Part shown: in pieces, positions 6,001 through 9,000 of the stretch
Numbering within the stretch: position 1 is the first letter of the stretch
Layout: each line of letters begins with the position of its first letter
Assembly: GCF_013167455.1 (NCBI RefSeq)
Contig: NZ_CP038328.1
Length of the DNA: 64,000 bases
Strand: one strand, 5' to 3'
Source of the DNA: Escherichia coli O157:H7
GTDB taxonomy: Bacteria > Pseudomonadota > Gammaproteobacteria > Enterobacterales > Enterobacteriaceae
Program-made: the position numbers

Positions 6001-9000
6001 TCGTCTGGACCTGCTGCAAAAAGGATATAAACAATGAATACAACATTTGCACTCGTTCTGACAGTTTATCTTGTTTCCGGCGAATCTCTTGAGCTGGTGA
6101 CTGGCTTATACGGTTCAATGAAAGAATGCATGGCTGCAGCAGCAGAACAAAAAATTCCCGGTAACTGTTATCCGGTAGATAAAACTACTCACACTAATAA
6201 TAACGAAATACCGGCAGGACTTTAAAACAGCACCGTAATTAATATCCGGTTTCATTTTTATATGCCAGCAATGGCAGGGATTTGTTCACCCTTAAATCTG
6301 TAATGAGGTTAAAACACAATGAGTAAAATCTTTATTTGCGCTGCTATTCCTGACGAACAGGCCATAAAAGAAGATAGCGCTGTTGCGGTGGCCACTGCCA
6401 TTGAAGCCGGTGATGAGCGTCGCGCACGCGCAAAATTTCACTGGCAATTTCTGGAGCAATTCCCGGCAGCTCAGGACTGCGCTTATAAATTTATTGTCTG
6501 CGAGGATAAACCCGGCATACCCCGCCCTGCCCTCGATTCCTGGGATACCGAATATATGCAGGAAAACCGCTGGGATGAGGAGTCAGCTTCCTTTGTACCG
6601 GTCGAACCAGAATCCGATCCGATGAACGTCAATTTTGACAAGCTGTCCCCTGAAGTACAGAACGCAGTCCTGGTTAAATTCGACACATGCGAAAACATCA
6701 CCGTTGATATGGTGATTAGCGCACAGGAATTACTACAGGAAGACATGGCAACATTCGGCGGACATATCGTTGAAGCGTTGATGAAAATGCCAGAAGTTAA
6801 CGCCATGTATCCTGAACTTAAACTGCATGCCATCGGGTGGGTTAAGCATAAATGTGAGCCTGGCGCTAAATGGCCTGAAATTCAGGCAGAGATGCGCATC
6901 TGGAAAAAACGTCGCGAAGGTGAACGCAAGGAAACCGGAAAATACACGTCTGTTGTTGATCTCACCCGCGCCAGAGTCAACCAACAGAACACTGAAAACG
7001 CTGCTGAAAAAACCGGGGCTGTCACTGTTGCCATTCGCCGCGAATACAAACAGACATGGAAAACACTCGACAATGAACTGGCCTGCGCCCTCTGGCCCGG
7101 TGATGTGGATGCAGGAAACATTGACGGTACCATCCATCGCTGGGCGACAAATGAGGTTATCGACAAGGATCGCGAAGACTGGAAGCGTATCTCAGCATCA
7201 ATGCGCAAACAGCCCGAAGCACTTGGCTATGACCGTCAGACTATTTTTGGCCTTGTTCGCGAACGTCCGATCGATATTCACAAAGATCCCGTTGCACTGA
7301 ACAAATATATCAGTGAATACCTGACGACAAAGGGCGTGTTTGAACATGAAGAAACAGACCAGAGCTCTACTGATGCTCTCCAGCCGTCAGCAGCACAAAC
7401 TGCTCCAGTGGAGACGGCAGAATCCGATACTCAAAAAAATGAAATCCTGGTGGAAGCTGAACCATCTGTAGAGCGTGAAGGACCATTTTATTTCGTCTTT
7501 ACCGATAAGGGCGGGGAAAAATACGGCAGGGCAAACAAACTTTCTGGTCTGGACAAGGCGCTGGCTGCCGGCGGTACCGAAATCTCAAAAGAAGAATATT
7601 TTGCCCGAAAAAATGGCACATACACGGGCTTACCGCAAAATGTGGATACCGCTGAAGATTCCGAACAATCAGAGCCGGTAAAAGTTACCGCTGACGAAGT
7701 AAACAAAATTATGCAGGCAGCCAATATCAGCCAGCCTGACGCCGATAAATTGCTTGCTGCATCACGTGGTGAATTTGTTGAAGGGATTAGCGACCCGAAT
7801 GATCCGAAATGGGTGAAAGGGATCCAGAGTCGCGACGCTGAGGACCAGAATCAGCCCAACGTGAAACAAAATGAGCCAGAAGCGGAACAAAACAGCCCGG
7901 ATACGCAACAAAACGGGCCAGAAGAACAACAACCAGAACCAGCAGTGCAACAGGAACTGGAAAAAGTTTGCACCGCATGCGGTCAGACCGGTGGCGGCAA
8001 CTGTCCTGACTGTGGTGCGGTGATGGGGAACGCAACCTACCTGGAAACATTCGATGAAGAGAATCAGGCTGAAGCTCAGAAAAATGATCCGGAGGAAATG
8101 GAAGGCACTGAACATCTGCACAAGGAGAACACTGGCAGCGATCAGTATCACGCCAGCGATAATAAAACTGGCGAAACAGCAAATCCCTTAATTAAAGTGA
8201 ACGGTCATCATGAAATCTCATCCACCAGCAGGTTGTGGCACCATCTGATGATTGACCTTGAAACAATGGGAAAAAATCCTGATGCGCCAATAAACTCTAT
8301 AGCCGGTAAGTTTTTTGATCCGGCAACCGGAGAGATGGGGCCAGAATTCAGCAAAACTATCGATCTGGAAACCGCAGGTGGGGTCATCGATCGGGACACC
8401 ATTAAGTGGTGGCTGAAACAGTCACGCGAAGCACAATCCTCCATTCTGACCGATGAAATCACGTTGGATGATGCACTGCTGCAATTCCGGGAATTTATCG
8501 ACGAAAACTCCGGTGAATTTTTTGTTCAGGTCTGGGGTAACGGTGCAACTTTCGACAACGTGATTTTACGCCGTTCATATGAACGGCAGGGGATCCCCTG
8601 CCCGTGGCGTTACACCAATGATCGCGATGTAAGAACGATGGTTGCTCTGGGACTGGTGATGGATTTCGACGCAAGAACGACTATTCCATTCGAAGGTGAA
8701 CGCCATAACGCCCTGCACGATGCACGTTACCAGGCGAAATACGTTTCAGCCATCTGGCAAAAACTGCTCCCGAGTCAGGCTGATTTTTGATGTTCAACCC
8801 ATATCGCCGCCCACCAGCTATAGTGGCGGCGGTCATGCTGTAAAGGCACGTGACCACATGTACGAATTAACTCTATCTCCAGCAGAGATTAAAGAGATCA
8901 CGAAATACGAGCGATACACAAAACAGCAACACCAGTTAAGACTGCACGGCATCCCATTTGTAATCGGCCCTAAAAACGAACCCATAGTTCTCCGCAGGGA

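What the first reader, a model, noticed from the sequence alone, without database searches (positions are those of the whole stretch)
6319..8790. 823-aa prophage protein combining an unknown N-terminal region, acidic low-complexity linker, zinc-ribbon-like CxxC...CxxC and a DEDDh 3'-5' exonuclease domain, with no annealase partner
The C-terminus has DnaQ-like Exo I/II/III motifs (MIDLET, FDNVIL, HNALHDARY), which would be 3'-5' polarity, unlike lambda Exo or the RecE catalytic domain. It is preceded by CTACGQTGGGNCPDCG and a Q/E/P/N-rich segment. No Bet/RecT-type gene is adjacent (neighbours are a ydfD-like gene and xis), so the protein may not be a recombination exonuclease; a nuclease role in anti-phage or anti-host activity is conceivable.
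Basis: partly seen in the sequence, partly recalled or inferred. Interest (0 to 1): 0.5.

Follow-up and report, generated by a model that had tools for sequence, protein, structure and literature searches.

The report
RecE-like prophage protein with 3'-5' exonuclease head
This is a very common, already catalogued E. coli prophage gene (the intact form of K-12's broken ydfE) in which the non-catalytic body of the RecE recombination nuclease carries a T4 DexA-like 3'-5' exonuclease instead of RecE's own nuclease and has no annealing partner; its enzyme type is clear, its biological role is untested.

Summary
ORF 6319-8790 (+) encodes 823 aa with an intact DEDDh 3'-5' exonuclease domain (Pfam PF16473, E=7e-62; D646, E648, D746, H796, D801), a CxxC-x7-CxxC motif (C551-C565), a Q/E/P/N-rich linker and no annealase.

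It is not obscure. It is 100% identical to a RefSeq E. coli O157:H7 'exonuclease', and a ≥80%-length match occurs in 3,526 of 5,426 complete E. coli genomes. It is the full-length form of K-12 Qin ydfE.

The 'unknown' N-terminal part is largely homologous to the non-catalytic part of Rac RecE (aa ~164-625, Cys motif included). Homology stops exactly where RecE's PD-(D/E)XK nuclease begins. The family is modular: YdfE-type or RecE-type N-termini combine with DEDDh heads, RecE heads, another head type, or none.

In all 11 distinct DEDDh-head gene contexts examined (13 loci) the gene runs straight into xis/int. The three RecE-head genes examined are followed by a ~270-aa gene, RecT-type in two.

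The best reading is an early-left-operon, induction-expressed 3'-5' DNA exonuclease on a RecE-type scaffold, not a RecET/Red-type recombinase. A defence role has a precedent (EcD/HREX, 38% identical) but is not supported here. Interest is low to moderate.

The parts
6319..8790 (+). Complete CDS, 823 aa. It is the intact YdfE-type 'exonuclease', 100% identical to RefSeq WP_000034474.1.
   Evidence: PHROG 2082 matches 1-823/823.
6319..6618 (+). N-terminal domain 1 (aa 1-100), a small alpha/beta domain and part of Pfam YdfE_N. No detectable homology to K-12 RecE.
6631..6936 (+). Helical domain 2 (aa 105-206). From about aa 164 onwards it is homologous to RecE.
   Evidence: AF2. hhalign aligns aa 164-340 with RecE 176-360, probability 99.2%, E=7e-20. 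dN/dS 0.08.
7054..7338 (+). Helical domain 3 (aa 246-340), the module shared by nearly all family members and by RecE aa 278-340. It corresponds roughly to Pfam YdfE_C.
   Evidence: dN/dS 0.09.
7354..8238 (+). Long acidic linker (aa 346-640), predicted mostly disordered. It includes the Q/E/P/N-rich stretch at aa 506-549.
   Evidence: AF2 pLDDT below 50 over most of the region. Composition. Relaxed selection, dN/dS 0.34-0.71.
7726..7833 (+). Conserved island in the linker (aa 470-505, LLAASRGEFVEGISDPNDPKWVKGIQ...), nearly identical in RecE.
   Evidence: BLASTP against RecE. dN/dS 0.05. AF2 pLDDT 56-69.
7969..8016 (+). CxxC-x7-CxxC motif (C551, C554, C562, C565), a putative zinc knuckle. It is shared with K-12 RecE (CNACGQTGGDNCPDCG) but absent from more distant family members.
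   Evidence: dN/dS 0.06 for aa 550-575. AF2 does not model it confidently. Zinc binding is untested.
7743..8192 (+). Stretch with DNA-level homology to Rac recE codons 455-591 (76% nt identity). Its right end, about 8192 (aa 625), is the mosaic junction where the nuclease head was exchanged.
   Evidence: blastn. BLASTP homology ends at query aa 625 / RecE aa 591.
8239..8757 (+). DEDDh (DnaQ-like) 3'-5' exonuclease domain of the Rv2179c/DexA family (aa 641-813). Catalytic codons: D646 (8254-8256), E648 (8260-8262), D746 (8554-8556), H796 (8704-8706), D801 (8719-8721).
   Evidence: dN/dS 0.10.
5612..6225 (+). Upstream members of the same early-left operon block: DicF sRNA (5612-5663), dicB (5849-6037) and the ydfD-like DUF1482 gene (6034-6225).
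   Evidence: Rfam RF00039, 76.9 bits. PGAP annotation. The same block precedes the gene in 8 other loci.
8858..10303 (+). Downstream end of the prophage: excisionase (8858-9100), tyrosine integrase (9078-10097) and attR, a 65-nt copy of the serT 3' end at 10239-10303. No annealase gene lies between the exonuclease and int.

Best explanation
The gene encodes a modular nuclease of the RecE/YdfE scaffold family, carried in the early-left (pL-type) operon of a Qin/DicB-type lambdoid prophage. Three confidently folded N-terminal domains (aa 1-340) are followed by a ~290-residue acidic, mostly disordered tether that carries a conserved island and a Cys4 knuckle. This whole body is largely homologous to the non-catalytic part of Rac RecE. 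At aa ~625, exactly where RecE's PD-(D/E)XK 5'-3' nuclease would begin, the body is joined to a DexA/Rv2179c-type DEDDh domain instead. What is shown: the domain identities, the intact catalytic pentad, the mosaic junction, purifying selection on every folded module, conserved synteny, and the absence of a phage annealase. What is inferred: the protein is a Mg2+-dependent exonuclease that removes nucleotides from free 3' ends, most likely of DNA. It is co-transcribed with dicF-dicB-ydfD after prophage induction, not in the repressed lysogen. The N-terminal scaffold, as presumably in RecE, targets or tethers the nuclease head to a partner or substrate in phage DNA replication, recombination or end processing. 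It does not act as a lambda-Red/RecET-type 'exonuclease plus annealase' recombinase. Any recombination role would have to go through host functions.
For: Enzyme type: Pfam PF16473, E=7e-62. A profile hit to T4 DexA 8KEL, E=2e-70. AF2 plus Foldseek put DexA first at E=3e-11, then RNase T and Orn. The DEDDh residues are invariant. RecE scaffold: BLASTP aligns aa 262-625 with RecE 278-591, E=4e-59. hhalign aligns aa 164-340 with RecE 176-360, probability 99.2%. DNA homology ends at window 8192. Modularity: YdfE-N or RecE-N bodies combine with DEDDh heads, RecE heads, a phrog_7838-type head, or none. Position: the gene occupies the recE slot between the division inhibitor and xis/int. Operon membership: no promoter or convincing terminator was found in the 93-bp gap after ydfD. 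Function is maintained: overall dN/dS against phage Tritos is 0.17, folded domains 0.05-0.10 and linkers 0.34-0.71. A ≥80%-length match is present in 3,526 of 5,426 complete E. coli genomes. No annealase was seen in 11 distinct DEDDh-head contexts across 13 loci or in the whole prophage. The RecE-head genes examined are followed by recT or a RecT-like gene. Link to phage DNA metabolism: a 53%-identical standalone homologue sits between SSB and Abc2, next to a putative recombination protein, in epsilon34. PMC12315714 regards it as a Rec-module member and also notes DnaQ-type nuclease genes near int.
Against: There are no biochemical data for this protein or for K-12 ydfE in the searchable literature. 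A 3'-5' polarity produces 5' overhangs, the wrong intermediate for single-strand annealing or RecA loading, and DnaQ-type exonucleases usually inhibit recombination (noted in PMC12315714). The founding member of the Pfam family (Rv2179c) is an exoribonuclease (my own knowledge), so the substrate could be RNA. The N-terminal fold gave no informative structural match, so 'targeting scaffold' is an inference by analogy with an equally uncharacterised RecE region. Some relatives have a mutated head (P0214: ExoI E->K, ExoII D->A) or no recognised head (P0126). The nuclease may therefore not be the core of the family's function. Expression only after induction is inferred from gene order and a simple promoter scan.
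Confidence: 0.55

Rival explanations
1. It is an anti-phage (superinfection-exclusion) nuclease. The prophage-encoded DexA-like head would degrade the DNA of incoming phages, for example those with modified cytosines, as proposed for the E. coli DexA homologue EcD ('HREX').
For: PMC12153337 reports that plasmid-borne EcD digests T4 DNA and protects E. coli from T4. I recovered an EcD-like 189-aa protein (A78, starting MIDTET) from IMG/VR contigs. It is 37.7% identical to this head, E=1.5e-34. The gene is kept intact under purifying selection even in a defective prophage and in most E. coli genomes, often in several copies.
Against: The residue that paper says is required for activity on T4 DNA, DexA W152, is T766 here and T/Y/N across the 823-aa family. 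The D169 equivalent aligns to V/A. The D90-equivalent Asp, whose absence defines the EcD class, is present here as D718. There is no PADLOC match (best E=0.03). There is no promoter of its own, and the gene lies in a repressor-controlled operon. EcD is a standalone protein, not a RecE-scaffold fusion.
Confidence: 0.2
2. It is an anti-host or scavenging nuclease. After induction it would help degrade host DNA (or broken DNA) to nucleotides, as T4 DexA does.
For: The closest solved structure is T4 DexA. DexA's accepted roles include host-DNA scavenging (abstract of PMC12153337). The gene is co-transcribed with the host-directed genes dicF, dicB and ydfD (lysis protein).
Against: Temperate lambdoid phages are not known to degrade the host chromosome (my own knowledge). 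Identity to DexA is only 26-28%. The RecE-type scaffold and the recE position point to action on phage DNA ends rather than bulk degradation.
Confidence: 0.1
3. It is an RNA 3'-5' exonuclease like Rv2179c, acting on phage or host transcripts, for instance trimming or turning over RNAs of the dicBF operon.
For: Pfam and PGAP name the domain '3'-5' exoribonuclease'. Structural neighbours include RNase T, oligoribonuclease and REXO2. The gene lies in an operon that yields the processed sRNA DicF.
Against: The nearest characterised relatives (DexA, EcD) act on DNA. Phage homologues cluster with SSB, annealase, DNA polymerase and other DNA nucleases. DicF processing is attributed to RNase E and RNase III (my own knowledge).
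Confidence: 0.08
4. It is a decaying mosaic remnant with no current function.
For: The host prophage is defective (IS elements in the terminase region, truncated capsid gene). The K-12 copy is cut by IS2. One phage record carries a split gene.
Against: The 823-aa frame is intact in thousands of genomes and in phage Tritos. dN/dS is 0.05-0.10 in every folded domain. The catalytic residues are conserved in 119-120 of 120 family members.
Confidence: 0.03

Closest known systems
RecE (exodeoxyribonuclease VIII) of the Rac prophage, E. coli K-12
   Same: Same slot in the early-left operon, between the cell-division inhibitor and xis/int. The non-catalytic body is homologous: aa 164-340 match RecE 176-360 and aa 475-625 match RecE 455-591, about 76% at DNA level. 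The shared part includes the CxxC-x7-CxxC motif and the acidic linker. The overall plan is the same: a large N-terminal region of unknown function followed by a C-terminal nuclease head.
   Different: The catalytic domain is not homologous: a DEDDh 3'-5' fold replaces the PD-(D/E)XK 5'-3' fold. No recT follows. The first ~160 aa differ. The NCBIfam RecE equivalog scores 260 bits against a cut-off of 1269.
T4 DexA (exonuclease A; PDB 8KEL/8KEN) and the Pfam PF16473 Rv2179c-like family
   Same: The C-terminal 183 aa share the fold and all five DEDDh catalytic residues.
   Different: DexA is a standalone 227-aa protein of a virulent phage and is only 26-28% identical. This protein lacks DexA's extra loops and the W152 residue, and its nuclease is fused to a 640-aa RecE-like body.
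Standalone DnaQ-type nucleases of temperate phages (epsilon34 gp34; Escherichia phage PhiR40_1 190-aa protein)
   Same: These are the closest relatives of the head, at 53% and 57% identity. They are also encoded in the early-left operon. Such genes, both in Rec modules and 'near int', were noted in PMC12315714.
   Different: They are single-domain proteins. epsilon34 gp34 lies next to a putative recombination protein, SSB and Abc2, whereas this gene has no such neighbours.
EcD / 'HREX' defence exonuclease of E. coli (PMC12153337)
   Same: A DexA-like DEDDh exonuclease encoded in E. coli and in prophage-like contigs.
   Different: Only 37.7% identical, standalone at 189 aa, and it has the Trp equivalent to DexA W152, which is T766 here. 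No defence phenotype has been tested for the 823-aa protein.
YdfE of the K-12 Qin prophage, and 'RecE-2' / headless YdfE_N+YdfE_C proteins
   Same: K-12 ydfE corresponds to the first 766 nt of this gene at 89% identity. Pfam YdfE_N and YdfE_C are precomputed on the identical protein.
   Different: K-12 ydfE is truncated by IS2. The headless relatives (e.g. P0126, 702 aa) have no recognised nuclease domain.

Membership tests
DEDDh / DnaQ-like 3'-5' exonucleases, Rv2179c-like family (Pfam PF16473) | Full-length match to the family HMM above threshold | tested here: met
   aa 641-813 match model positions 1-177/177, E=6.9e-62, 208.7 bits.
DEDDh / DnaQ-like 3'-5' exonucleases, Rv2179c-like family (Pfam PF16473) | Exo I (DxE), Exo II (D) and Exo III (Hx4D) catalytic residues | tested here: met
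   D646, E648, D746, H796 and D801 are invariant in alignment A1. They are conserved in 119-120 of 120 E. coli homologues.
DEDDh / DnaQ-like 3'-5' exonucleases, Rv2179c-like family (Pfam PF16473) | RNase H-like alpha/beta fold superposable on solved members | tested here: met
   AF2 pLDDT 85-96. Foldseek: DexA 8KEL E=2.9e-11, TM (normalised by target length) 0.68-0.73, followed by RNase T, Orn and Cap18.
DEDDh / DnaQ-like 3'-5' exonucleases, Rv2179c-like family (Pfam PF16473) | Metal-dependent 3'-5' exonuclease activity, and the substrate (DNA or RNA) | not testable with these tools
   Needs an enzyme assay.
RecE / exodeoxyribonuclease VIII (NCBIfam NF007259 equivalog) | Whole-protein score above the curated cut-off | tested here: not met
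   260 bits against a cut-off of 1269. The best-scoring matched stretch is aa 453-625.
RecE / exodeoxyribonuclease VIII (NCBIfam NF007259 equivalog) | C-terminal PD-(D/E)XK nuclease domain (RecE ~aa 564/606-866; Pfam DUF3799) | tested here: not met
   BLASTP homology ends at RecE aa 591. There is no Pfam hit other than PF16473. DNA homology ends at window 8192.
RecE / exodeoxyribonuclease VIII (NCBIfam NF007259 equivalog) | Homologous non-catalytic N-terminal/central region | tested here: met
   aa 164-340 and 475-625 are homologous to RecE. The first ~160 aa are not.
Two-component phage recombinases (lambda Red Exo/Beta, RecE/RecT) | Exonuclease gene paired with an adjacent single-strand annealing protein gene | tested here: not met
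   The gene is followed directly by xis and int. No annealase is annotated in the 49.9-kb prophage. The same holds in 10 further distinct contexts.
Two-component phage recombinases (lambda Red Exo/Beta, RecE/RecT) | 5'-3' resection of dsDNA ends leaving 3' tails | not testable with these tools
   The DEDDh chemistry predicts the opposite polarity. This is an inference from the family, not a measurement.
HREX / EcD-type defence exonuclease (PMC12153337) | Residues equivalent to DexA W152 and D169, proposed to recognise 5hmC | tested here: not met
   The W152 equivalent is T766. D169 aligns to V780, in a loop where the alignment is uncertain and D782/D784 lie nearby.
HREX / EcD-type defence exonuclease (PMC12153337) | Loss of the tetramer-forming Asp (DexA D90; A78 in EcD) | tested here: not met
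   The aligned residue is D718. It is D in 52 and V in 68 of 120 family members.
HREX / EcD-type defence exonuclease (PMC12153337) | Protection of the cell against T4 or other phages | not testable with these tools
   Needs plaque and growth assays. There is no PADLOC model match.
YdfE family (Pfam PF27430 YdfE_N + PF27432 YdfE_C; PHROG 2082) | Match to the family models, and orthology with K-12 ydfE | tested here: met
   Precomputed Pfam domains on the identical protein P0001, with the family names taken. PHROG 2082 matches 1-823/823 with E=0. K-12 ydfE equals nt 1-766 at 89% identity.

The most novel reading that the evidence does not exclude
The conserved unit may be the RecE/YdfE scaffold rather than any one nuclease. 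On this reading the scaffold is a targeting platform of lambdoid early-left operons that carries interchangeable or even dispensable heads: a PD-(D/E)XK 5'-3' head with RecT, a DEDDh 3'-5' head without an annealase, a third head type, a dead head, or none. The DEDDh version would then carry out an annealase-independent job that has not been described. Candidates are trimming 3' ends at phage replication or recombination intermediates in Rec-module-less phages that rely on host RecBCD/RecA, or excluding competing phages. If so, comparing head-swapped natural variants would make the long-unexplained function of the RecE N-terminal region directly testable.
Probability: 0.2. Interest if true: 0.6.

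Novelty: already known. Interest (0 to 1): 0.3.

Why it matters
The gene is among the commonest prophage genes in E. coli: about 65% of complete genomes hold a ≥80%-length match. It is routinely mislabelled 'exodeoxyribonuclease VIII/RecE' in phage records, although it has the opposite predicted polarity and no annealase. Annotating it correctly avoids false inference of RecET-type recombination capacity in prophages. The natural head swaps on a shared scaffold also offer a handle on what the RecE N-terminal region does; that region is known only to boost linear-linear recombineering (review PMC11611040). The gene's existence, domain content and distribution are already in the databases, and DnaQ-type nucleases near int have been noted in print. 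The finding is therefore a refinement rather than a discovery.

Tried and rejected
1. Full RecE membership was rejected. The NCBIfam score is far below the cut-off, and the catalytic domain is not homologous.

2. Known defence systems: PADLOC gave only E=0.03 on 23 residues.

4. Zinc ribbon: AF2 gives pLDDT of about 50 or below, so structure prediction neither supports nor refutes zinc binding. The motif is absent from more distant relatives.

5. Own promoter or terminator: the simple scan found none between ydfD and the gene. This is weak evidence only.

6. A tRNA at the attachment site: none between int and yccA. Instead there is a 65-nt partial copy of serT.

7. The first whole-protein homology search returned only near-identical E. 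coli sequences and added no diversity. The representative search with aa 1-360 was the useful one.

8. I asked whether EcD, the published defence exonuclease, is this protein. It is not. Primer sequences from the paper's supplement led to a 189-aa standalone protein that is 37.7% identical.

9. Literature on ydfE, or on this protein by name: only incidental mentions. The supplementary tables of PMC12315714 are not held.

10. Rv2179c itself was not recovered by sequence or profile search of the PDB.

11. Chi density: 9 sites in the 49.9-kb prophage, similar to the flanking host DNA. This is compatible with, but does not establish, membership of the 'no Rec module, Chi-using' class.
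Full report
OBSERVATION. The window holds an ATG-initiated ORF at 6319-8790 (+) of 823 aa. Aa 506-549 is Q/E/P/N-rich. Pfam finds one domain, PF16473 'Rv2179c-like 3'-5' exoribonuclease', covering its whole model at aa 641-813 (E=6.9e-62). In an alignment with five phage homologues, including a T4-type DexA, the DEDDh pentad D646/E648/D746/H796/D801 is invariant. It is kept in 119-120 of 120 E. coli homologues. An AF2 model of aa 440-823 folds the domain at pLDDT 85-96. 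Its best structural match is T4 DexA (8KEL, E=2.9e-11), followed by RNase T, oligoribonuclease and Cap18.

WHERE IT IS. The window is E. coli O157:H7. The gene is 100% identical to a RefSeq 'exonuclease' (WP_000034474.1). [quoted passage not shown] The gene order is repressor, relB/relE-parE, ydfA/B/C-like genes, DicF sRNA (5612-5663; Rfam 76.9 bits), dicB, the ydfD-like gene, this gene, xis, int, and attR (a 65-nt copy of the serT 3' end at 10239-10303). The prophage carries tccP2 and sodC and is defective, with IS elements in the terminase region and a truncated capsid gene. No annealase is annotated anywhere in it.

HOW COMMON. Megablast finds the gene in 4,796 of 5,426 complete E. coli genomes. 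A match covering ≥80% of the gene is present in 3,526 of them, with a median of 2 and up to 10 places per genome. K-12's Qin ydfE is the first 766 nt, cut by IS2. PHROG 2082 ('exonuclease') matches end to end. Newer Pfam releases assign YdfE_N (PF27430) and YdfE_C (PF27432) to the identical protein. The object is therefore catalogued, although I found no functional study of it.

THE 'UNKNOWN' N-TERMINUS IS A RecE-TYPE BODY. BLASTP against K-12 RecE aligns aa 262-625 with RecE 278-591 (E=4e-59). The match is near-identical from about aa 470 onward and includes the Cys motif (CNACGQTGGDNCPDCG in RecE) and the acidic tail. A profile of the N-terminal family aligns aa 164-340 with RecE 176-360 at 99.2% probability. 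At DNA level, window 7743-8192 matches recE codons 455-591 at 76%. Homology stops at aa 625 / RecE 591. [quoted passage not shown] The NCBIfam RecE equivalog scores 260 bits against a cut-off of 1269. In short, this is a RecE body with a different head.

A MODULAR FAMILY. A search of 1.84 billion cluster representatives with aa 1-360 found only 174 relatives, so the family is narrow. I mapped segments of this protein and of RecE onto the long relatives. The helical domain at aa 261-345 is nearly universal. It is preceded by either a YdfE-type or a RecE-type N-terminus. It is followed by a DEDDh head, a RecE PD-(D/E)XK head, a third 'exonuclease' head (phrog_7838) or no recognised head. One DEDDh head carries ExoI E->K and ExoII D->A substitutions.

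HEAD TYPE AND ANNEALASE. In every DEDDh-head context examined the next genes are xis and/or int. These contexts are this prophage, phage Tritos, phage 606R7, three metagenomic or genomic relatives, and five further E. coli genomes with four integration sites and several immunity types: 11 distinct contexts across 13 loci. The PD-(D/E)XK-head genes are followed by recT in K-12 and by a RecT-like gene next to P0128 (phrog_561, E=4e-101). Next to P0258 the following gene is a 271-aa gene of unknown family. The sample is small, but the pattern is consistent: the swap exchanged 'nuclease head plus annealase' for 'DEDDh head alone'.

IS IT FUNCTIONAL? Against the 85%-identical gene of phage Tritos, dN/dS is 0.17 overall. 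It is 0.05-0.10 in each folded domain, in the conserved island and in the Cys motif, and 0.34-0.71 in the linkers. This argues against a decaying remnant.

EXPRESSION. The 93-bp gap after ydfD has no consensus promoter and no convincing terminator. The gene is therefore most simply read as part of the repressor-controlled early-left transcript. This is an inference.

WHAT IT DOES. The enzyme class is secure: a metal-dependent 3'-5' exonuclease. The biological role is not. Two papers bear on it. PMC12315714 (Genome Res 2025) reports DnaQ-like 3'-5' nucleases inside lambdoid recombination modules, such as epsilon34, and 'sporadic' DnaQ-type genes near int outside such modules. It remarks that such nucleases usually inhibit recombination. 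I confirmed that epsilon34 gp34, 53% identical to this head, sits between SSB and Abc2 next to a putative recombination protein. PMC12153337 (NAR 2025) solved DexA (8KEL) and reports that an E. coli homologue, EcD, degrades T4 DNA and protects cells. Using the paper's primers I recovered an EcD-like 189-aa standalone protein with A78 as in the paper. It is only 37.7% identical to this head. The Trp which that paper finds essential for activity on T4 DNA (W152) is T766 here, and the Asp whose loss defines the EcD class is retained as D718. PADLOC has no match.

VERDICT ON MECHANISM. I rank an induction-expressed, scaffold-tethered 3'-5' DNA exonuclease acting in phage DNA metabolism without a phage annealase first (0.55). 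A defence nuclease comes second (0.2), then host-DNA scavenging (0.1), an RNA exonuclease (0.08) and a dead remnant (0.03).

NOVELTY AND SCORE. The sequence, its domains and its distribution are already in RefSeq, Pfam and PHROGs, and DnaQ-type nucleases near int have been noted in print, so I rate it 'already known'. This analysis adds three things: the precise RecE-scaffold relationship and junction, the combinatorial head swapping, and the link between head type and annealase presence. These are useful for correcting 'RecE/exonuclease VIII' annotations and for probing the RecE N-terminal region. They are incremental. Interest 0.3.

LIMITS. No enzyme, zinc, expression or phenotype data exist for this protein. 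The context sample is about 15 loci. Window positions beyond about 28.8 kb were not examined.

Noticed in passing
window 5612-6225 (+): A complete dicBF-type block sits just upstream: DicF sRNA (5612-5663; Rfam RF00039, 76.9 bits), dicB (5849-6037) and a ydfD-like DUF1482 gene (6034-6225). The same block precedes the exonuclease in 8 other loci.
   Followed up: partly
window 10239-10333: A 65-nt copy of the 3' end of tRNA-Ser (serT), 98.5% identical, marks attR. It is followed at once by a strong bidirectional terminator hairpin (10307-10333). The intact tRNA lies 49.9 kb away at the other prophage end, and no tRNA is detected on this side.
   Followed up: yes
window 3461-3939 (+): A RelB / RelE-ParE type II toxin-antitoxin pair (63 aa and 95 aa) lies directly downstream of the prophage repressor gene (3032-3433), ahead of the early-left genes.
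   Followed up: no
L019 13454-40001 (NZ_CP062723.1, the rest of the same prophage): The prophage is defective. IS66-family and IS3-family elements interrupt the small terminase region and the major capsid gene is truncated. It carries the cargo genes tccP2 (frameshifted), an espV fragment and sodC.
   Followed up: partly
window 4046-4353 and 5625-5833 vs L002 (Rac, K-12): Besides the recE-like stretch, two further patches of the early-left operon match Rac at DNA level. The ydaG/ydaF region matches at 85-89%. The DicF-dicB upstream region matches the kilS-kilR region at 74%, which suggests DicF and KilS lie in related modules.
   Followed up: no
P0214 (L013 4001-6259) and P0126 (L016 4001-6109): Some family members have a DEDDh head with catalytic substitutions (ExoI E->K, ExoII D->A), and others have no recognisable nuclease head at all, yet they keep the same operon position before xis/int. 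The scaffold may have a nuclease-independent function.
   Followed up: partly
L034 6401-6970 (-) and five further IMG/VR loci (L033, L037, L040, L047, L048): A 189-aa standalone DexA-like protein starts MIDTET, has Ala at position 78 and ends PFLNI. It matches the primers and description of the published defence exonuclease EcD. It is 37.7% identical to the head studied here. Its genomic context was not analysed.
   Followed up: partly
window 5090-5347 (-): An opposite-strand small ORF lies between the ydfC-like gene and DicF. It is 85 aa as listed here, and PGAP calls a 61-aa hypothetical protein at 5090-5275. It contains Cys-rich CPAC...NCPEH motifs and has unknown function.
   Followed up: no
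L019 + L001 (whole prophage, 49.9 kb): Nine Chi sites (GCTGGTGG; 4 top strand, 5 bottom strand) occur in the prophage, about the density of the flanking host DNA (10 in 32 kb). Three of them lie in window 1-10100, two of those within or just after the exonuclease gene (8222, 8811).
   Followed up: partly
phage records OV696610 (Tritos), ON470580 (606R7), EU570103 (epsilon34): Public phage annotations label the DEDDh-head proteins 'exonuclease VIII / exodeoxyribonuclease VIII (RecE)'. This is wrong for the catalytic domain and for the predicted polarity.
   Followed up: yes
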